Shown piece after piece: positions 48,301 to 55,117 of a stretch of DNA of 64,000 bases. Source of the stretch: an uncultured virus (IMG/VR IMGVR_UViG_3300043781_000019) (taxonomy: Duplodnaviria; Heunggongvirae; Uroviricota; Caudoviricetes; Herelleviridae); IMG/VR virus record IMGVR_UViG_3300043781_000019, one strand, 5' to 3'. Below the pieces are notes generated by a model, which was not told the origin of the DNA, searched no databases, and worked only from the letters and a program-made list of their open reading frames with translations. The translations under genes were made by a program, and so were the position numbers. How positions within the stretch are numbered: the first letter of the stretch is position 1; every line of letters starts with the position of its first letter.

Positions 48301-49161
48301 ATGTTTAAGATAACTTCTAGATTTTACATTATATATGGGGATGATAAGCCAATATATGTTGGATACACTAATAGGACTGTCAAGCAGCGGTTTGTTGAGC
48401 ATTGTCAAGATAAGGATTTTAGTAGCTATGATAATGTTTATGTTAAAGAACTAGTGAATGAAAAGCTTAGCTTTAACTTTACATGGGATTATGAGCAAAC
48501 CTGTGTTAATGCCAACTGTGTTTCAGAAAGAGAATCCAACTTAGTTTCTAAATATGGCACTCAGGGTTCTGCCTATCAAAAAGCCATTGGTGGCGGGCAA
48601 ACGTGGGCAAGCGAAAAAGGATTTGTTAAGTCAAATATTAATAACCCAAAGTTTATGGGAATGGCTGGTAGTCAAGTAAAAAAGTATTTGGAAAGTAGGA
48701 AAAAGAAGTCTGTTTGGCTAAGTCACTTTGTAAGCCATATGCAACCAGTTGAGGCTGTTTGGTTAAGCAGCTTTGTAGGTAACATGAAACCGGTTGAGGC
48801 TATTTGGCTAAGTCACTTTGTAGGTAACATGAAACCGGTTGAGGCTATTTGGTTAAGTCACTTTGTAGGTAGTATGAGGCCAGCTGAGGCTGTTTGGCTA
48901 AGTAACTTTGTAGGTAACATGAATCCGGTTGAGGCTGTTTGGTTAAGAAACTTTGTAGGTAGTATGAGGCCAGCTGAGGCTGTTTGGTTAAGTCACTTTG
49001 TAAGTAGCATGAGACCAGTTGAGGAAGTTTGGTTAAATGACTTTGTGCATAACATGAGGCCAGTTGAGGCTGTTTGGTTAAGCAATTTTGTAGGTGGCAT
49101 GAGGTCGGTTGAGTCTGCTTGGTTAAGAAGCTTTGTAGGGAACATGAAGACGTTAGATTAA
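48301..49161 (+). CDS. GIY-YIG-like endonuclease with ten C-terminal 15-aa repeats
   Basis: YIIY...YVGYT...RFVEH...E N-terminal domain; own promoter at 48248. Confidence 0.7.
   Translation: MFKITSRFYIIYGDDKPIYVGYTNRTVKQRFVEHCQDKDFSSYDNVYVKELVNEKLSFNFTWDYEQTCVNANCVSERESNLVSKYGTQGSAYQKAIGGGQTWASEKGFVKSNINNPKFMGMAGSQVKKYLESRKKKSVWLSHFVSHMQPVEAVWLSSFVGNMKPVEAIWLSHFVGNMKPVEAIWLSHFVGSMRPAEAVWLSNFVGNMNPVEAVWLRNFVGSMRPAEAVWLSHFVSSMRPVEEVWLNDFVHNMRPVEAVWLSNFVGGMRSVESAWLRSFVGNMKTLD
48709..49158 (+). repeat. Ten in-frame 45-bp tandem repeats
   Basis: Consensus peptide AVWLxxFVxxMxPVE. Confidence 0.95.
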
Positions 49162-49190
49162 ATTTGTGTACTATATAGGGAGGAAATAAT

Positions 49191-49481
49191 ATGATTAAAA
49201 TTAGTTTTAATAAAAACAGCAAAGGAAAGTATGACTTTTCTGTAACTCAAAATGATAAATTGCTATACAAGAAAGAATATGCTGCCACAGAAAAGGATGA
49301 AACAGGGCACACACAAGCGCAAGTTTTCAAGGCTTATTGTAACTTTTTACAAGACCAAGTAAATGAAATTCTTGAGAAAGACCCTAATTTTCACTGGAAG
49401 TCCTTCAAAGACTTTAAGGCGTTTGCAGGCACCAAGAATCAAAATCTATTTTTTGAAAATGAGTTAAAATACTTGGATTAA
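49191..49481 (+). CDS. Hypothetical protein
   Basis: GGAGG RBS. Confidence 0.55.
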   Translation: MIKISFNKNSKGKYDFSVTQNDKLLYKKEYAATEKDETGHTQAQVFKAYCNFLQDQVNEILEKDPNFHWKSFKDFKAFAGTKNQNLFFENELKYLD

Positions 49482-49652
49482 TATGTTGACTTTTTAAAAT
49501 AAACGTGGTATAGTATTTATATAAGCTAGTTGGAAGGACAACCATATAAACCCTGCGATTCATGCTTGGCCAAAACATTTTTGCAGTAATTGATGGCTTG
49601 ATGCTTCCAGAAAGGGCGCCCGCTGGAAGCTACAAAATGGTGGCGCTATACT

Positions 49653-49725
49653 GCTTCCTTAGCTCATTAGGTAGAGCACTTGTTTTGTAAGCAAGAGGTG
49701 ACTGGTTCAAGCCCAGTAGGAAGCA
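49653..49725 (+). tRNA. tRNA-Thr(TGT)
   Basis: Cloverleaf, loop TTTGTAA, no encoded CCA. Confidence 0.9.
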
Positions 49726-49963
49726 TAGATTCAAATAAGCAATAGGCGATACCTTAAGCAAAATAACTAATATTTGGATTAAGCACTAAAAAGTGTTGAC
49801 ATTTAAAGCAGCACATGGTACACTTATTACTGTTGAAAGGCAAAAGGGATAAGGAAGATATAAAACGTGAGTTTTGTTAGTTAGAAAAATTAAAAAATAG
49901 GCCTTGACATTTTAGATAAGTTGTGTTAGTATTAAATTATGGTCATTAATAAGTGGCCATTTT

Positions 49964-50035
49964 GGACCGTTAGCTTAATGGTAAAGTCGTCAGCTCATAC
50001 CTGATTTTATGAACGTTCGAGTCGTTCACGGTCCA
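49964..50035 (+). tRNA. tRNA-CAT (Ile2 or Met)
   Basis: GGACCGT/ACGGTCC acceptor, loop CTCATAC. Confidence 0.8.
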
Positions 50036-50040
50036 TTTAT

Positions 50041-50133
50041 AGTCCTGTAGCACAGTGGTAGTGCACCCGGCCTATACCCGGCATATGTCAGTAGATTTTC
50101 TGAACGACATCGGTTCGATCCCGATCAGGACTA
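50041..50133 (+). tRNA. Atypical tRNA, TAT anticodon, long variable arm
   Basis: AGTCCTG/CAGGACT acceptor, good D and T arms, loop CCTATAC, ~25-nt variable arm. Confidence 0.7.
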
Positions 50134-50261
50134 TTAAAAAGTTATAACGTAGCAAAATTTGGCCTAGGGAAACGAGGCTTACTGATCTAAGTAAAAAATC
50201 TACGTTTAGAGTTTCCTTGTTAATATCTCTTTAAGGGATACTAGCAAGCTTCTCTATAAAT

Positions 50262-50336
50262 GTTCCCATAGCACAACTGGATAGTGCATCTGTCTTCTAA
50301 ACAGTAATTTTCCCAGTTCGAGTCTGGGTGGGAACA
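50262..50336 (+). tRNA. tRNA-Arg(TCT)
   Basis: Cloverleaf, loop CTTCTAA. Confidence 0.88.
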
Positions 50337-50372
50337 TTGTGTATGAAAAAAATAAGTGAAAGGAGATAAAGC

Positions 50373-50660
50373 ATGACTATTCTTTGCCCTAATAAGTTTA
50401 ATCAGTACTTAGAAGATCACAATTTAGAAATATATGATGTTGCTAAGATGATGAGAGATTCCCCCTATAATAAAAGTAGAAGAACTCGTCAAGCATATGT
50501 TAGACTTCTAGAGCAAGCTTTTATGTACGGGTGGTCTACAGTAAATGCTCTTGGTGGTGGCTACGAGCCAGGGGTTCACAATGGACAAGATGGCGGAATA
50601 TCTGCTAAGTATGTTGCTAAAATTATTGGGTGCAAGGTTCAAGATATTGTAGGATGGTGA
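50373..50660 (+). CDS. Hypothetical protein, possibly HTH
   Basis: AAGGAG RBS; C-terminal AKIIGCKVQDI. Confidence 0.55.
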   Translation: MTILCPNKFNQYLEDHNLEIYDVAKMMRDSPYNKSRRTRQAYVRLLEQAFMYGWSTVNALGGGYEPGVHNGQDGGISAKYVAKIIGCKVQDIVGW

Positions 50661-50666
50661 CTTTAA

Positions 50667-51149
50667 ATGAATCATAAGGTGGTATTTGAAGATAAAAATG
50701 TATTAGTATTTCACATTTATAGTAGCCTTGACAACCCTACTATGCTTAAGGTACAGAAAAGTTTGTACTTCCTTTGGGCTTATTACTCTGGAACCTATGG
50801 TAACTTAGTAGGTAAGGACGGACTAGATATTTCAAAAGAGGATTACCCAGAGTCCCTATTTAAGGGAAATTTTAAGGCACTTATGTATGGACCTGTTGAT
50901 ATAGATGTTCTTAAAAAGCAAAAAGAGAACTTCTACAGTAAAGATAAGTGGAAGGGGTATACCCCTAAAGGAAGTTCAGAAATAGAAGTTATGGGGTTCG
51001 TTAATGACCTATTGGGTCAAATAAACGCTGTAAATGACTTTGGACTAATTAATAGATGCCATGAAGATAATTGTTGGAAGCAAGCCTATGAAAATGGTAG
51101 GGAAAGCTATATGGATCTTGATGCTATAAGAAAAGAGTACCAGATTTAG
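50667..51149 (+). CDS. Panacea/SocA (DUF4065)-like antitoxin
   Basis: LKVQKSLYF...LF...F.A..YGPV...L....H....WKQA. Confidence 0.75.
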   Translation: MNHKVVFEDKNVLVFHIYSSLDNPTMLKVQKSLYFLWAYYSGTYGNLVGKDGLDISKEDYPESLFKGNFKALMYGPVDIDVLKKQKENFYSKDKWKGYTPKGSSEIEVMGFVNDLLGQINAVNDFGLINRCHEDNCWKQAYENGRESYMDLDAIRKEYQI

Positions 51150-51163
51150 TATTACTTATTAAT

Positions 51164-51235
51164 GTTTCCATAGAACAATGGATAGTTTACCGGTTTCCTA
51201 AACCGTTAATTCCGGTTCGAGTCCGGATGGAAACA
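51164..51235 (+). tRNA. tRNA-Arg(CCT)
   Basis: Cloverleaf, loop TTCCTAA. Confidence 0.88.
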
Positions 51236-51272
51236 TATTGGCAAATATGCTTATAATACTTTTGCCAATTGC

Positions 51273-51301
51273 TTGCATTAGAAGTAAAAGTGTGTTATAC
51301 T
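51273..51301 (+). promoter_or_regulatory. Sigma-A-type promoter of the large-RNA block
   Basis: TTGCAT-17-TATACT with TG. Confidence 0.7.
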
Positions 51302-51317
51302 TAAAAAGTAGTAAAAC

Positions 51318-51907
51318 CTTGCTCCTTGAAAACTGAATCCGATTCAACCATGTGTATAAGGTGATTGCTTCACCGTCATGGATACCCATGCTAAGTAATG
51401 TCGTAAGCTGCTTTTAGGGATACCTTTAGCAACTTGCAGAATATATGGAAACATATAGGAAGGCTGTAAAAGCAGTCAATTAATGGGTAGTGCTAGTTGT
51501 TGTGACATAAGGCATAGGACTGGTTGGGTAGGCAATAGACGCCCTGTTGGGAATAAGCCAGCAAGCCCCTGTGGTAGCTCTTGGGGAAACGCTGGTACGC
51601 TATAACTACCTTAGCTATGAAAAGCGGAAGGCACCGTGTGAGGCTGATAAAAAAGCTTCACGATAAAACCAGAAACTAGTAAAAGTAGGCTAAGGCTAAA
51701 TTTAGAAAAATACTATTGGAGTATTAAAATAAATCGAATGCAGGCTGAAATTTGGGCATCAAAGAATGCGCCCTTGCAAGTTAAAAGCACTTAGTTGTTA
51801 TAGGGTAGCTCCCTATAGCACGGGCTAAGTGGGCAAGTTGCCTAATAATGGTAGCAACAATATGGTAGGAGTAAAAGACGGATCGGGTTTAGTTTTCAGG
51901 GAGCAAG
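51318..51907 (+). ncRNA. Large ornate ncRNA, probably ROOL-like
   Basis: 590 nt closed by a 28-bp terminal helix; many internal hairpins; tRNA-adjacent; family inferred from size and context. Confidence 0.6.
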
Positions 51908-51960
51908 TGTGCTTATAATGCATATTATGTTGCTGTATTCAAGTAGGTAAGAGAGTACAA

Positions 51961-52174
51961 ATCGCTGTGGCGGAACAGGTAAACGCTATGGGTGATAGAC
52001 GAAGGCTTGGTGTCAAGGCAACGGTAAATGGCGGAACATAAATGGACTGAGTAGTTGCCAGCCTTAAAAAGTAGATGAATAGTAATTCGCCTGTGAAGTT
52101 AGTCAACTGTGACCATATCCGTTCCTAATCCATCTACAATGTGTCATGTCGGGTGCAAATCCCGACCAGCGATA
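51961..52174 (+). ncRNA. tRNA scaffold with large structured insert
   Basis: ATCGCTG/CAGCGAT acceptor, D arm, T-like arm GTCGG-GTGCAAATC-CCGAC. Confidence 0.65.
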
Positions 52175-52407
52175 TTACCGGTAAAGCCTAGCGCGCTTGC
52201 TAGCGCGGACTAGTGGGCGAGTATAAAGCGTGGTCACATGTCTTGCACTTCAAGGCAATGTGGGAACCACCATGACTGAGGGTTCAGAAACCATCGCCTC
52301 GGATAGCGGAAACATGAGCAACTGGCGTTTAGGCGTTAACGGAAACCAGAAATCGCTTTTTCGTGGTATCTGTTATCAGGTTCAAATACCGGCGGTTGCA
52401 TACAAGG

Positions 52408-52480
52408 TTGGTATTAGCTAAGTGGGAAAGCGTCCCATCACGAGGTGGGGAATGAGCAGGTTCGATTCCTGCATACCACA
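52408..52480 (+). ncRNA. tRNA-like RNA with 8-nt anticodon loop TCACGAGG
   Basis: Acceptor, D and canonical T arms. Confidence 0.7.
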
Positions 52481-52845
52481 TATTAGCCGCGAAGGTCTGG
52501 AGCAATCCTACGTTCCGATGCAAAAGCCTGTGCACGGGTTATTAGAAGGCTAAGCTACATATTGTTGCTTGTACATTGGCAACTAAAATATTAATGTAGA
52601 TAATTCAACTCCCCTGCAAGGCGAAAGCCTATGTTGCAGAAAGCCCCCATATTGATACGGGATATGGGAAAGTAGCAGACGTGCTCATGATGGTGCTGTT
52701 CGCGGTCTCGGCCATCAATCAGTTTTATGTACATGGTAAAGCCCTACGTGTTTGCTAGCATGGACAAGGGGTGATTACAAAGGTGTGCTGAATTAGCTTG
52801 GCACGTAACCAAGGACTTAGAAACCTTCGCCTTGGATAGCATGGG

Positions 52846-52918
52846 TTGAGAGTAGCTAAATGGAAAAGCGCCCCGTCATTAGGCGGGTAATAAGTGGGTT
52901 CGATTCCCATCTCTCAAA
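52846..52918 (+). ncRNA. tRNA-like RNA with 8-nt anticodon loop TCATTAGG
   Basis: TTGAGAG/CTCTCAA acceptor, D and canonical T arms. Confidence 0.7.
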
Positions 52919-53177
52919 TAGGAATGCATGGCAGGCATGCTTAATTGTAGCTGGGTTCCCGAATGGGAGTAGGTTAAATCTTAGAAATCCCAAGCAGACA
53001 ACATGTGTTCTGAGTCTCCGAGAGTACTGGGACTTAAATAATAGTACTCATATGTAAGGTTAGAGTCTTTCTAGAAGGCAAAGCGGTTGACATTACCCAA
53101 TACCGTATGCTGAGTCACATGACTGGTCGATAAAATGACCACCAATTCCATTTGGGTTGTGGCTAGTGGACAGCATT

Positions 53178-53234
53178 GCGACTGAGGATCAATTTTATGG
53201 CCTCTACGATTAGGTTCGACTCCTGACAGTCGCC
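53178..53234 (+). ncRNA. Minimal tRNA-like element lacking one arm
   Basis: GCGACTG/CAGTCGC acceptor plus TTAGG-TTCGACT-CCTGA T arm. Confidence 0.55.
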
Positions 53235-53281
53235 TTACAATTCCGGAGTTGTAAAATAGATTGATTGATTGAGGGAAAACA

Positions 53282-53953
53282 ATGGAAGAAAAAGAAAAAC
53301 TTAAGGCGCCACGAGTACCATTAACGTGGCTTGATGAGCGGTTAGAAGATTTAAAGTTTAGCTATTACGATTTAGCTAGGTTATATGCGCATGATAAAGA
53401 ACAAGCTAACTCAGCAATCAGTATATTAAGTCGCTATTATAGGGCAGTTGAGAACTACTTTCAGTGGCTTGCTTGGGATAAAAATATTGCTAAAAACTCT
53501 GCACAAACATACATACAGCATAAAGATGGAACATACGAAATTGGCGATGTAGATTTACCTGATCCTAAGTATGAAGTGTCTATTAAGATGCAGCATAGGT
53601 TGTTTCGTGCAGTTGACGCAAGTGACTACTACCGGATGGACCTTGATGATGAGTTTAATGGTGTAGTTGGAAGTGATGATGGCTATCAAGACCTAATCAA
53701 CCTGTTATGGCCCGATGGGGATACCGTACTAGATAGTTTGAATGTAAATGTAGTTTCTTTAGCTATCATAAACACAATCCGAGGAATCAATCTTGATGAA
53801 GAAGATAGACAATCTGTAGGTACAACAGAGGCTGTAGATGCTATAGCAGATATTAGCAAAATTGAAAAACGTGTTAACAGTTTTAGGAGAAAAGAAAAGG
53901 ATTACCTTGAGTCTCTTAATGGACGTAAGAAAGGCATTAGTAAAATTAAATAA
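53282..53953 (+). CDS. Hypothetical protein
   Basis: ORF with RBS and downstream terminator. Confidence 0.6.
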   Translation: MEEKEKLKAPRVPLTWLDERLEDLKFSYYDLARLYAHDKEQANSAISILSRYYRAVENYFQWLAWDKNIAKNSAQTYIQHKDGTYEIGDVDLPDPKYEVSIKMQHRLFRAVDASDYYRMDLDDEFNGVVGSDDGYQDLINLLWPDGDTVLDSLNVNVVSLAIINTIRGINLDEEDRQSVGTTEAVDAIADISKIEKRVNSFRRKEKDYLESLNGRKKGISKIK

Positions 53954-54057
53954 AAATAGAAGAAATGGGGGATTTAATCCCCCTATTTTTATAGCTTGTT
54001 TTTAAATGCATCCTGTGCTATACTTGTTGTATAAACAAAAAGGAAGGTATAAAAAAT

Positions 54058-54633
54058 TTGAATGATCAAGATGACGAAGTACTAGGAGTTATCAATACAG
54101 TTGTTACTAACACTAAGCATAGAACAGTGAGTGTTAAGATTCCAGGAACCTATGCAAAAGCAAATGCAGAGCTAGAAAGACTTAAAGGCTTGCTTAACGA
54201 TGAAATAGTGTCAGGGTGGCTAATGATACTTGTTACGATTAGCTATTTCCTTGTACTTTTTGGAATTGAGTCTATATCCGGAGTTAAGCCAGCAGATACT
54301 ATGCAAGCACACACCCTAATTATTACAATGTGGATGTTCTTTATATACTTCAAGGATAGCAAAGCTATTAACTCGGCAGGTATGGACGATGATAATATTT
54401 GGGAAAATTCGTTTAATTTGTTTGTTCTTTTGCCTGTGGTTGTAGGTTCTTTAATGGGATTTGTCTTACCCGCGAATCCTTTGCTTGCTTTAACACCGGT
54501 TGGGCTTCTCACCCATGCTTATAATCAATCTAGCTACATTGATTACTATGAGCAAATGCTGCAAGACTCAGAAATCAGAGCCACATATAAGCTACCAGAA
54601 AGTGATGATAGTAATGACAAAAGTAATTCTTAG
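54058..54633 (+). CDS. Membrane protein (3-4 TM)
   Basis: Hydrophobic segments, RBS. Confidence 0.55.
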   Translation: MNDQDDEVLGVINTVVTNTKHRTVSVKIPGTYAKANAELERLKGLLNDEIVSGWLMILVTISYFLVLFGIESISGVKPADTMQAHTLIITMWMFFIYFKDSKAINSAGMDDDNIWENSFNLFVLLPVVVGSLMGFVLPANPLLALTPVGLLTHAYNQSSYIDYYEQMLQDSEIRATYKLPESDDSNDKSNS

Positions 54634-54823
54634 CATTGTTTCCAGACTAGATGAAGCTGGGTATAATTTCAGTCTTAAGGTTGAGGCAGGAGGTGCCCTA
54701 TTATTAGCTAATGGGCACCGACTAGAAACTGTTGATGTACTGTTATTGGACGGCAAAAAAGTTGCTAATGACTCAGATATAATTGGTAGAAAAATGGGAC
54801 TGTGGAAATAGTAAGGAAGTGCT

Positions 54824-55117
54824 ATGTTGGACTATCAAGGAAAATATATGATGCTTGTTGGAAAGACTATGACAAAGGTTTATATATCTAAATATGTTGA
54901 TCATAGTGCAGCCATTCAGATTGAAACTAAGCAAGGAAAAATGAGCCTTGAAATACCGCATAATAGCTACTTGATATATCAAGTAGATAAAAGAACACCT
55001 TATTCAGATGATCTTGTTTACCTAGACATTATTAAACGAGATATTAAAATTTTGGCCTGTTATGACTCTTTGCTCATTGGTAAAATGATTTCTGGTAAGG
55101 CTCTTGTAAAACTTTGA
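54824..55117 (+). CDS. Hypothetical protein
   Basis: AAGGA RBS. Confidence 0.5.
   Translation: MLDYQGKYMMLVGKTMTKVYISKYVDHSAAIQIETKQGKMSLEIPHNSYLIYQVDKRTPYSDDLVYLDIIKRDIKILACYDSLLIGKMISGKALVKL

What the first reader, a model, noticed from the sequence alone, without database searches (positions are those of the whole stretch)
52408..52918. Two tRNA-like RNAs share the same non-canonical 8-nt anticodon loop TCAnnAGG
Seen: acceptor and T stems differ in sequence but keep their pairing. Both have TAGCTAA.TGG.AAAGCG D arms, an AAT.A variable loop and 8-nt loops (TCACGAGG, TCATTAGG) with C at position 33. The loops can zip into tetraloops ACGA/ATTA. Inference: the same anomaly in two diverged copies argues for selection (quadruplet decoding, decoy or processing role) rather than decay.
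Basis: partly seen in the sequence, partly recalled or inferred. Interest (0 to 1): 0.72.

Follow-up and report, generated by a model that had tools for sequence, protein, structure and literature searches.

The report
Sealed-anticodon tRNA look-alikes in Lacticaseibacillus phages
Two small genes in this Lactobacillus-type phage fold like transfer RNAs, but their codon-reading loop is zipped into a closed hairpin. They belong to a conserved phage family that most likely serves as cutting marks or decoys rather than as translators of the genetic code.

Summary
52408-52480 (t1) and 52846-52918 (t2) are tRNA-shaped (Rfam tRNA 43.1 and 45.4 bits; ARAGORN gives no isotype). Both carry the 8-nt segment TCAnnAGG.

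The window is a relative of Lacticaseibacillus myophage Lb338-1. The element is a family: 20 distinct 73-nt sequences from lytic and temperate Lacticaseibacillus phages and prophages. All have the 8-nt segment; none has a 7-nt loop.

The segment is not an open loop. Its first and last bases pair in 20 of 20 sequences (U:G 15, U:A 4, A:U 1), and the next pair is C:G in 20 of 20. That leaves a tetraloop A-Y-N-A (AUCA, AUUA, ACGA, ACCA). The top stem pairs are mostly lost.

The nearest decoding relatives are host tRNA-Gln. The elements sit in arrays of other anticodon-less mini tRNA-likes. They abut conserved spacer RNAs and, in some prophages, a real tRNA-Ile with no spacer.

Best reading: a selected, non-decoding tRNA-Gln-derived mimic used as a handle for RNase P, RNase Z and the CCA enzyme in a phage non-coding RNA array. 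A decoy role is the main rival. Quadruplet decoding is unlikely. No maturation data exist for the element itself.

The parts
52408..52480 (+). tRNA-like t1 (73 nt). tRNA-Gln-type D arm and variable loop, sealed anticodon arm, U1-C72 mismatch, no encoded CCA.
   Evidence: ARAGORN '???'; Rfam tRNA 43.1 bits. Found only in this phage lineage: the window plus one identical viral contig, L012.
52434..52449 (+). t1 anticodon-arm hairpin: 6 pairs closing the tetraloop ACGA (52440-52443).
   Evidence: RNAfold MFE. Pair probabilities 0.93-0.96. Closed form -9.0 against -4.3 kcal/mol for the open 8-nt loop.
52363..52369 (+). GTGGTAT, an alternative perfect 5' partner for t1's 3' acceptor strand.
   Evidence: My acceptor/T-arm scan gives 7 of 7 pairs. 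The MFE of 52355-52485 uses it.
52846..52918 (+). tRNA-like t2 (73 nt), the widespread family type. Acceptor 7 of 7 with U1:A72, followed by T.
   Evidence: ARAGORN '???'; Rfam 45.4 bits. 88-93% identical copies occur in temperate Lacticaseibacillus phages; homology stops at the element's ends.
52872..52887 (+). t2 anticodon-arm hairpin: 6 pairs closing the tetraloop AUUA (52878-52881).
   Evidence: RNAfold MFE. Pair probabilities 0.89-1.00. Family pair counts.
52175..52322 (+). Spacer RNA 'U', copy 1. It runs from the 3' end of the preceding tRNA-like towards t1.
   Evidence: 90-93% identical to R29.1 (L033) and prophage L014. RNAalifold: 28 pairs, 8 with changes on both sides.
52735..52845 (+). 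Spacer RNA 'U', copy 2. It ends at the base before t2.
   Evidence: In L014, L042 and L045 the same module also ends directly at the family element.
51961..52174 (+). Long class-II-like tRNA-like: 7 of 7 acceptor, Leu/Ser-type D arm, 6-bp T arm with TGCAAAT loop, about 165-nt insert.
   Evidence: Read from the sequence. 51966-52166 is about 79% identical to L. plantarum myophages. A 103-nt version in L014 folds as a cloverleaf with a 6-nt loop. Not called by ARAGORN or Rfam.
52608..52719 (+). Conserved non-coding block 'V' between t1 and U2.
   Evidence: 83% identical to phages C3.1 and R29.1, where it follows another mini tRNA-like.
53178..53234 (+). 57-nt mini tRNA-like: acceptor 7 of 7, T arm 5 of 5, no D or anticodon arm.
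   Evidence: My scan. Also found in Lb338-1 and Lbab1. RNAfold's MFE does not show the T arm.
51324..51898 (+). ROOL RNA, immediately upstream of the array (context).
   Evidence: Rfam RF03087, 210.8 bits, E 3.2e-46.
52576..52604 (+). Promoter-like site ahead of V-U2-t2.
   Evidence: Consensus scan, 10 of 12 matches. The region as a whole is not enriched: 12 sites found against 10.9 expected.

Best explanation
t1 and t2 are non-decoding tRNA mimics derived from tRNA-Gln. They keep the parts that tRNA-processing enzymes read: a 7-bp acceptor stem with a free discriminator, a D loop with GG, and a canonical T arm. The anticodon loop has been sealed into a 5-6 bp stem capped by an A-Y-N-A tetraloop, so no anticodon is presented.

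They are modules of phage non-coding RNA arrays in which several different anticodon-less tRNA-likes alternate with conserved spacer RNAs. The most likely mechanism has four steps.
1. The array is transcribed as a precursor.
2. Host RNase P cuts at the 5' end of each tRNA-like.
3. RNase Z cuts after its discriminator. Where a real tRNA abuts, RNase P acting on that tRNA does this instead.
4. These cuts release the spacer RNAs with defined ends and leave the tRNA-like as a stable RNA that the CCA enzyme can tail.

Shown: the fold, its conservation, the sealed arm, the array architecture, and the tRNA-Gln ancestry. Inferred: transcription as one precursor, cleavage by RNase P and RNase Z, CCA addition, and what the released RNAs do.
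For: Family and selection
- 61 places give 20 distinct 73-mers. All 20 carry the 8-nt segment: TCATCAGG 11, TCATCAGA 4, TCATTAGG 2, and one each of TCACGAGG, ACACGAGT and TCACCAGG.
- Pair counts on A6: 92% of 440 cells are paired, and 9 of 22 pairs show changes on both sides. None of 500 shuffles reaches this, and the slid controls give 39-58% paired.
- In the D stem, 12:22 changes from U:A to C:G in 2 sequences.

Sealed arm
- Column pair 31:38 is paired in 20 of 20 (U:G 15, U:A 4, A:U 1).
- 32:37 is C:G in 20 of 20.
- The canonical top pairs are mostly lost: 26:43 is paired in 1 of 20 and 27:42 in 12 of 20.
- RNAfold gives the tetraloop hairpin in 5 of 5 sequences folded.
- Pair probabilities for 31:38 and 32:37 are at least 0.94 in 19 of 20 sequences.
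- The two middle loop bases vary (UC, UU, CG, CC) while the flanking A's are invariant.

No decoding homologue
- The loop-free scan of viral contigs found 26 loci. Seventeen hold 18 family copies, all with 8 nt. Nine hold ordinary tRNAs with other acceptor stems (8 of the 9 checked with ARAGORN).

Architecture
- Homology between the myophage and the temperate phages is confined to 52847-52916/52925, that is, to the element itself.
- The base after the discriminator is T in 25 of 27 contexts. In the other 2 it is the first base of an abutting real tRNA-Ile(UAU) scoring 70-73 bits, with no spacer.
- 20 of 27 upstream contexts hold another acceptor-plus-T-arm minihelix within 450 nt, against 7 of 1350 shuffles.
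- Spacer U runs exactly from one tRNA-like to the next.

RNA data
- In raw RNA-seq run X24, which carries a related prophage, 35 molecules (depth beside: 58) end at L024:819. That is the first base after the discriminator of the sibling 55-nt mini tRNA-like.

Place and ancestry
- In temperate phages the array follows a gene matching PHROG 'transcriptional activator' (E 2.9e-46) and DUF1492, and precedes the packaging-side genes.
- My covariance model scores family members at 101-104 bits. The next best hits, 47-55 bits, are host tRNA-Gln in all 6 loci checked.
Against: - No read data show ends, CCA or abundance for t1, t2 or any family member. Run X1, which has the identical prophage, gave only broken low-depth contigs. 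Run X24's prophage lacks the element.
- The sharp end at L024:819 could be a transcription start.
- Mini tRNA-likes without D and anticodon arms exist in the same arrays. A processing role therefore does not explain why this family keeps a full-length, sequence-conserved anticodon arm.
- The family is shallow (mean column identity 93%). The covariation at 31:38 rests on about two events.
- In my control, the nearest-neighbour model also over-closes 2 of 5 real tRNA anticodon arms of the window, though by only 1.4-1.7 kcal/mol against 4.3-4.7 for t1 and t2.
- The Lbab1 copy has two acceptor mismatches and ARAGORN does not call it. It may be dispensable in lytic phages.
- t1 is known from one lineage only.
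Confidence: 0.5

Rival explanations
1. Decoy or sponge. The matured, CCA-tailed mimic binds host factors that act on the acceptor/T-arm half or the whole L-shape of tRNA. Candidates are tRNA-targeting abortive-infection toxins or the tRNA-processing enzymes themselves. It cannot interfere with decoding because its anticodon is sealed.
For: - The full L-shape is kept: GG in the D loop, a canonical T loop, and an anticodon arm of normal length. That is more than the neighbouring mini tRNA-likes keep.
- The element sits in tRNA islands of lytic phages, next to replacement-type tRNAs. It is also next to an ORF with a weak Panacea-antitoxin-like hit (E 0.002, below Pfam's cut-off).
- It moves as a discrete 73-nt unit between unrelated phage types.
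Against: - No target is known, and no defence gene was linked to it here.
- The discriminator varies (A in 16 sequences, G in 4), and pair 1:72 varies between G:C, U:A and mismatches. A mimic of one specific tRNA end should be tighter.
- The abutment to spacer RNAs is not explained.
Confidence: 0.2
2. Decoder with an expanded loop. The eight nucleotides stay open in vivo, perhaps held open by modification. They then read a 4-base codon (UGAU, UAAU, UCGU or UGGU), or read UGA/UAA as a suppressor, for programmed recoding of phage genes.
For: - The 3' three loop bases read as anticodons would be UCA, UUA, CCA and CGA. The first two match stop codons.
- Relatives sharing its D and T arms include CUA suppressor tRNAs from other viral contigs.
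- Natural 8-nt-loop decoders exist, such as yeast mitochondrial tRNA-Thr(UAG) (PMC7609411, passages read).
Against: - The closing pairs covary or are invariant, and the closed form is favoured by 4.3-6.7 kcal/mol.
- There is no U at position 33 (C in 20 of 20). G-G or G-A follows the loop core.
- The top of the anticodon stem is unpaired.
- Orthologous elements would have four different meanings.
- In Lactobacillales tRNA-Gln is, as I recall, charged by an anticodon-dependent route.
- The phages are annotated with uninterrupted genes.
- My screen of the window for long ORFs continuing through or +1 past a stop found 15 sites. Five were TAAT (four continue in +1, one in frame), as expected for packed genes.
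Confidence: 0.05
3. Relic. The elements are decaying tRNA-Gln pseudogenes, or recombination scars in a tRNA hot spot, carried along without a function of their own.
For: - The region is mosaic. 52176-52607, which holds t1, is absent from Lb338-1 and Lbab1 and is built from pieces 84-93% like temperate phages.
- t1 has a 1:72 mismatch and a competing 5' strand.
- The Lbab1 copy has two acceptor mismatches.
- Fragments of other tRNA-likes lie nearby at 52379-52410.
Against: - All four helices are maintained with compensatory changes across 20 variants.
- Sequence identity of 88-93% is confined to the element, while the flanks are unalignable between phage types.
- The same position at the end of the array is held in 27 contexts.
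Confidence: 0.1
4. Partner or cargo of the ROOL RNA. The sealed tRNA-like is a ligand for the adjacent ROOL nanocage, or is packaged by it.
For: - ROOL lies 510 nt upstream of t1.
- ROOL and GOLLD are reported to lie near tRNA islands, and tRNAs were proposed as possible cargo (bioRxiv 10.1101/2024.12.08.627333, passages read).
Against: The temperate phage and prophage loci searched with Rfam (eight carrying the element, two without it) show no ROOL within about 1.5-2.5 kb. Only those flanks were searched.
Confidence: 0.03

Closest known systems
Canonical elongator tRNA (Rfam RF00005), specifically Lactobacillaceae tRNA-Gln
   Same: - Cloverleaf with a 7-bp acceptor stem, a D loop with GG, a TTCGATT T loop, and a 5-nt AAT-type variable loop.
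- Scores above the Rfam gathering threshold.
- Host tRNA-Gln are the best non-family matches to the family model.
   Different: - 8 nt where the 7-nt loop should be, closed into a stem plus tetraloop.
- C instead of U at position 33.
- Top anticodon-stem pairs lost.
- No isotype call from ARAGORN.
t-elements of plant mitochondria and mascRNA/MALAT1-type tRNA-like processing signals
   Same: A tRNA-shaped, non-decoding fold placed at the boundary of another transcript, where RNase P or RNase Z cutting would define that transcript's ends. The spacer RNAs abut the element here.
   Different: - Those are eukaryotic or organellar and were shown experimentally (PMC1920247: search listing and start of abstract only; mascRNA recalled). 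Here cleavage is inferred.
- The Rfam mascRNA model gave only one weak hit, 26.1 bits against a gathering score of 42.5, and on a neighbouring module.
Natural and engineered 8-nt-anticodon-loop tRNAs (yeast mt tRNA-Thr(UAG); frameshift suppressors)
   Same: Eight nucleotides between the two strands of the anticodon stem.
   Different: Those loops stay open and present an anticodon after U33 (PMC7609411, passages; details of suppressors recalled). Here the outer two positions on each side pair, and one of the pairs covaries.
YrlA / bacterial Y-RNA-like tRNA mimics (Rfam RF02553)
   Same: A non-decoding RNA with tRNA-like D and T arms, found in bacteria and phages.
   Different: - In YrlA the RNA ends lie in a Ro-binding stem, not in a free acceptor stem (recalled).
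- Rfam YrlA scored only 23.6-26.9 bits against a gathering score of 69, across the junction with the next tRNA.
Anticodon-less tRNA mimics noted earlier in this scan in other phages
   Same: A full cloverleaf with the anticodon loop replaced by a tetraloop, in phage intergenic or RNA-operon settings (AI notes, unchecked).
   Different: Those carry GNRA tetraloops in 70-100-nt units from crAss-like, archaeal and Clostridia phages. This family has an A-Y-N-A loop, an arm one nucleotide longer than canonical, tRNA-Gln ancestry, and a Lacticaseibacillus host range.

Membership tests
Canonical decoding tRNA (RF00005) | Cloverleaf that scores above the Rfam gathering threshold | tested here: met
   43.1 and 45.4 bits against 29.
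Canonical decoding tRNA (RF00005) | 5-bp anticodon stem closing a 7-nt loop with U33 and a readable triplet | tested here: not met
   8 nt in 20 of 20 sequences and C at the second position in 20 of 20. Pair 26:43 forms in 1 of 20 and 27:42 in 12 of 20. ARAGORN gives '???' or inconsistent calls.
Canonical decoding tRNA (RF00005) | Aminoacylation and use on the ribosome | not testable with these tools
   No charging or ribosome data are available.
Expanded-loop (quadruplet or suppressor) decoders | The eight loop nucleotides are unpaired and present the anticodon | tested here: not met
   31:38 is paired in 20 of 20 with U:G, U:A and A:U. 32:37 is C:G in 20 of 20. The closed form is favoured by 4.3-6.7 kcal/mol. 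This is a prediction, not probing; the control is.
Expanded-loop (quadruplet or suppressor) decoders | Cognate recoding sites in the phage's genes | tested here: inconclusive
   A crude screen of the window found 15 stop sites with long continuations, 5 of them TAAT, with no excess over what adjacent genes give.
tRNA-like processing signals (t-elements, mascRNA type) | Non-decoding tRNA-shaped fold with intact acceptor and T domain | tested here: met
   Acceptor 96% and T stem 98% of cells paired, with compensatory changes.
tRNA-like processing signals (t-elements, mascRNA type) | Sits exactly at the boundary of another RNA | tested here: met
   Spacer U ends at the base before the element. 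A real tRNA-Ile starts at the base after it in 2 contexts. T follows in 25 of 27 contexts.
tRNA-like processing signals (t-elements, mascRNA type) | Cleaved in vivo by RNase P and RNase Z | tested here: inconclusive
   Only a sibling mini tRNA-like shows a sharp RNA end at its 3' boundary: 35 molecules at L024:819 in one run. There are no data for this family.
YrlA (RF02553) | Match to the family model | tested here: not met
   23.6-26.9 bits against a gathering score of 69. No hit in the window at E<=1.
tRNA-Gln lineage (ancestry only) | Closest decoding relatives are tRNA-Gln | tested here: met
   The top non-family hits of model R1 in 151 Lactobacillaceae genomes score 47-55 bits. All 6 loci checked are tRNA-Gln. 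They share the D arm, the AAT variable loop and U1:A72.

The most novel reading that the evidence does not exclude
Lacticaseibacillus phages, lytic and temperate alike, carry arrays of 'disarmed' tRNAs: acceptor and elbow kept, anticodon sealed. These are matured and CCA-tailed by the host and then act in trans. They would be RNA decoys that absorb tRNA-directed host immunity or tRNA-handling enzymes. The spacer RNAs released between them would be a second layer of phage small RNAs. That would make this a new class of RNA-based counter-defence or host-takeover module sitting beside ROOL.
Probability: 0.15. Interest if true: 0.8.

Novelty: new variant of a known kind. Interest (0 to 1): 0.55.

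Why it matters
- Annotation. Phage tRNA genes are usually read as codon-supply or anti-defence spares. A conserved family that keeps everything except the anticodon shows that part of what annotation pipelines call 'tRNA-OTHER' or 'undetermined' is a different kind of gene.
- RNA processing. If the elements are processing handles, they show tRNA punctuation being used by phages of Gram-positive bacteria to make small RNAs. They also mark out the neighbouring conserved RNAs (U, V and the class-II-like element next to ROOL) as candidates for study.
- Defence. If they are decoys, they point to tRNA-directed defences in lactic acid bacteria used in dairy fermentation.
- Testability. The family is easy to test, because cultivable phages and lysogens carry it: Lc-Nu, CL2, Lrm1, Lb338-1 and Lbab1.

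Tried and rejected
- **Own genome.** Not held (error). I used phage records and genomes reached through loci instead.
- **Rfam at E<=1.** On 49000-55000 and on ten related loci it found no family for the spacers. For the tRNA-likes it gave only tRNA hits plus sub-threshold YrlA, mascRNA, tRNA-Sec and tmRNA hits.
- **RNA-seq**.
  - X1 (identical prophage, contigs only) covers L024 1-480, 629-810 and 842-1241 at depth 5-16. The breaks fall in the T-arm halves, which are repeated sequence, so nothing can be said about maturation.
  - X21 laid no reads, so it is no test.
  - X6 and X24 carry a related prophage with a different tRNA-like in the slot.
- **Recoding screen** of the window: not informative.
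- **Host tRNA by BLAST.** In three Lacticaseibacillus genomes only partial T-arm matches of 20 nt or less appeared outside the prophage copies.
- **Thermodynamics alone** cannot prove sealing: 2 of 5 real tRNA arms are also over-closed by the model.
- **A script regex of mine** returned nothing and was corrected.
- **Literature.** Six searches covered expanded anticodons in phages, Lb338-1 tRNAs, anticodon-less tRNA-likes in phages, RNase P/Z processing signals, non-canonical phage tRNA loops, and prophage minihelices. None found a description of this family. Subscription papers on Lc-Nu, Lrm1, CL2 and Lb338-1 were not readable here and may mention the 'tRNA'.
- **L052**, one of 8 metagenome loci, matched the pattern but differs in acceptor, D arm and anticodon arm. 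I did not examine it further.
Full report
**What is there**

The window is a close relative of Lacticaseibacillus myophage Lb338-1 (Herelleviridae, Mooreparkvirus): megablast gives 94.4% identity over 74% of 40000-64000.

Between 49652 and 51236 it has five ordinary-looking tRNA genes. A ROOL RNA follows at 51324-51898 (Rfam 210.8 bits). After that comes about 1.4 kb with no ORF above 68 aa. The two elements of the finding lie in that stretch.

- ARAGORN calls both elements tRNA with no isotype.
- Rfam tRNA scores are 43.1 bits (t1, 52408-52480) and 45.4 bits (t2, 52846-52918) against a gathering score of 29.
- The copies are 78% identical over 64 nt.

**It is a family, and the anomaly is constant**

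A distant BLAST of 51900-53300 against phage records hit 25 records, all Lactobacillus or Lacticaseibacillus phages. The t2 element alone matches these temperate siphophages at 88-92%:
- CL2, where it is annotated 'tRNA-OTHER'
- Lc-Nu
- Lrm1
- R24.1

It also matches Lb338-1 and Lbab1.

I then scanned collections with patterns that fix only the D arm and T arm and leave the loop and its length free.
- **Viral contigs:** 26 loci. Seventeen hold 18 family copies. Nine hold ordinary tRNAs with different acceptor stems (Arg, Asn, Cys, Leu(UAA), and CUA suppressors; 8 of the 9 checked with ARAGORN).
- **One genome per species:** 3 loci, all Lacticaseibacillus (mingshuiensis, suibinensis, nasuensis).
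- **Metagenomes:** 8 loci, 7 of them family members.
- **A second viral scan** anchored on the anticodon arm added three contigs.

In all, 61 places give 20 distinct 73-mers. Every one has eight nucleotides between the stem strands:

| Segment | Sequences |
|---|---|
| TCATCAGG | 11 |
| TCATCAGA | 4 |
| TCATTAGG | 2 |
| TCACGAGG | 1 |
| ACACGAGT | 1 |
| TCACCAGG | 1 |

More distant relatives with ordinary loops do exist. My covariance model of the family, run on 151 Lactobacillaceae genomes, scores family members at 101-104 bits, and only in two genomes. The next tier, 47-55 bits, is host tRNA-Gln in all 6 loci I checked. Two CUA suppressor tRNAs from other viral contigs share the D and T arms. 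The family is therefore a derivative of tRNA-Gln. That explains the AAT-type variable loop and the U1:A72 pair of t2.

**The 'loop' is a stem plus a tetraloop**

Pair counts on the 20 sequences:

| Column pair | Result |
|---|---|
| 31:38 (outermost loop positions) | paired 20 of 20: U:G 15, U:A 4, A:U 1 |
| 32:37 | C:G in 20 of 20 |
| 26:43 (canonical top pair) | paired 1 of 20 |
| 27:42 (canonical top pair) | paired 12 of 20 |

The helix has thus slid towards the loop. What remains unpaired is A-Y-N-A: AUCA, AUUA, ACGA or ACCA. The two A's are invariant and the middle bases are free.

RNAfold gives this hairpin in 5 of 5 sequences folded. Pair probabilities for the two extra pairs are at least 0.94 in 19 of 20 sequences, and 0.57 in the other. 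In the four arms I evaluated, the closed arm is 4.3-6.7 kcal/mol better than an open 8-nt loop.

As a control I folded the arms of the window's five ordinary tRNAs. The model also over-closes two of them, but gains only 1.4-1.7 kcal/mol. Energy alone is therefore suggestive, and the pair counts carry the argument.

The covariation is thin. The U:A state looks like one event, and A:U is one sequence (L056).

The rest of the cloverleaf is under clear constraint:
- 92% of cells are paired.
- 9 of 22 pairs show changes on both sides (none of 500 shuffles reaches this).
- Slid controls give 39-58% paired.
- A U:A to C:G swap occurs in the D stem of two prophage copies.

**Why decoding is unlikely**
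- There is no U33.
- The stem top is open.
- Orthologous elements would carry four different 'anticodons'.
- The phages are annotated with uninterrupted genes.
- A crude screen of the window for ORFs that continue through or +1 past a stop gave nothing beyond what packed genes produce.

Natural 8-nt decoders such as yeast mitochondrial tRNA-Thr(UAG) (PMC7609411, passages) are the nearest precedent, but these features do not fit that kind. I put this reading at about 5%.

**Context: arrays of disarmed tRNAs**

Homology between the myophage and the temperate phages stops at the ends of the element (52847 to 52916-52925). The unit conserved, or exchanged, is therefore the tRNA-like itself.

A scan for a T arm (5 of 5 pairs) followed by a 3' strand with a 5' partner (at least 6 of 7 pairs) found further tRNA-likes in the same intergenic slot:
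- a 54-55-nt element in Lc-Nu, CL2, Lrm1, R24.1, R29.1 and C3.1
- a 52-nt element in three prophages
- a 77-nt element in R29.1 and C3.1
- a 58-nt tRNA without an anticodon arm in L. mingshuiensis (Rfam tRNA 44 bits)
- a 57-nt element in the window at 53178-53234, also present in Lb338-1 and Lbab1

Of 27 distinct upstream contexts of the family element, 20 hold such a minihelix within 450 nt, against 7 of 1350 shuffles. Several of the 7 misses have a T-loop variant that my regular expression excludes.

Reading the window by eye adds a 214-nt class-II-like tRNA-like at 51961-52174. Its core is about 79% identical to L. plantarum myophages. A 103-nt version in prophage L014 folds as a cloverleaf with a 6-nt loop.

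Between these elements lie conserved spacers. 'U' (52175-52322 and 52735-52845) recurs in R29.1, three prophages, Lb338-1 and Lbab1. RNAalifold predicts 28 pairs for it, 8 with double changes. It runs from the last base of one tRNA-like to the first base of the next.

In two prophage contexts a genuine tRNA-Ile(UAU), scoring 70-73 bits, starts at the base after the family element's discriminator. In the other 25 of 27 contexts that base is T. As I recall, B. subtilis RNase Z favours a downstream U; that paper was not read, and its title words appeared only in reference lists found.

In temperate phages the array follows a gene matching PHROG 'transcriptional activator' and DUF1492, and it precedes methylase, GcrA-like and HNH genes on the packaging side.

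The cassette holding t1 (52176-52607) is absent from Lb338-1 and Lbab1. It is built from pieces 84-93% like temperate phages. So t1 is a recent mosaic, with its D and anticodon arms from the family and its T arm and 3' strand like the 55-nt element. It is known only from this lineage.

**RNA evidence**

One search and one lay were allowed.
- **X1** carries the identical prophage to locus L024 but gave only three low-depth contigs, broken in the repeated T-arm halves. It is uninformative.
- **X24** (raw, strand-biased reads) carries a related prophage that lacks the family element but has the 55-nt sibling. There 35 molecules (depth beside: 58) end at L024:819, the first base after that sibling's discriminator. 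Depth also rises about 3.5-fold downstream.

That pattern fits RNase Z-type cleavage, though a transcription start is not excluded. It supports processing of the array, not of this family as such.

**Mechanism**

I commit to a disarmed tRNA-Gln used as a handle for tRNA-processing enzymes in a phage non-coding RNA array. The anticodon is sealed so the RNA cannot miscode.

My confidence that it is a selected non-decoder is about 0.8. My confidence in the handle role specifically is about 0.45.

The main weakness is that neighbouring handles manage without D and anticodon arms. The conserved full-length arm of this family hints at a further partner, which is why a decoy role stays at about 0.2.

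**Novelty**

Non-decoding tRNA-likes as processing signals are known in organelles and eukaryotes. Earlier AI notes of this scan list tetraloop-capped tRNA mimics in other phages (unchecked).

This family has an A-Y-N-A cap, an arm one nucleotide over length, tRNA-Gln ancestry, and a setting in Lacticaseibacillus phage arrays. I did not find it in Rfam 15 or in six literature searches. I rate it a new variant of a known kind.

Noticed in passing
window 51324-51898: Full-length ROOL RNA (Rfam 210.8 bits) between tRNA-Arg(CCT) and the tRNA-like array. The motif GCAARTRTGCTTATAAT recurs just before it (51241-51257) and just after it (51903-51919), which may mark two promoters.
   Followed up: partly
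window 50040-50134: The 'tRNA-Ile(UAU)' has C at position 33 (loop CCTATAC) and a 23-nt extra arm (Rfam 53.2 bits). Prophage tRNA-Ile(UAU) genes next to the family element have a normal loop and no extra arm.
   Followed up: no
window 51961-52174: 214-nt class-II-like tRNA-like: 7 of 7 acceptor, Leu/Ser-type D arm, TGCAAAT T loop, about 165-nt insert. The core is about 79% identical to L. plantarum myophages LP65, Lpa804, Bacchae and ATCC 8014-B2, where it lies among tRNA genes. Neither ARAGORN nor Rfam calls it.
   Followed up: partly
window 52175-52322 and 52735-52845: Conserved spacer RNA 'U' with covarying hairpins and a conserved loop AGAAACC. It is always bounded by tRNA-likes. It has no Rfam family.
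   Followed up: partly
window 52608-52719: Conserved block 'V', containing a GGC-GAAA-GCC hairpin. Shared at 83% with temperate phages C3.1, C4.1 and R29.1.
   Followed up: no
window 53178-53234: 57-nt minihelix-type tRNA-like directly before ORF 53282-53953. Conserved in Lb338-1 and Lbab1.
   Followed up: partly
window 50667-51149: 160-aa ORF between two tRNA-Arg genes with a weak Panacea/SocA antitoxin-domain hit (E 0.002, 19.4 bits, below the 25.7-bit cut-off). It matches PHROG 1281, of unknown function.
   Followed up: no
window 49000-49147: Three tandem 45-nt repeats (71-72% identical) inside ORF 48301-49161.
   Followed up: no
L025 583-658 and L008 585-656 (viral contigs): CUA (amber-suppressor type) tRNAs with tRNA-Gln-like D and T arms. 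They are possibly from phages that recode TAG.
   Followed up: no
L004 (Lbab1) 2333-2439: 107-nt class-II-like tRNA-like annotated tRNA-Ser. ARAGORN does not call it. It occupies the place of the window's 51961-52174 element.
   Followed up: no
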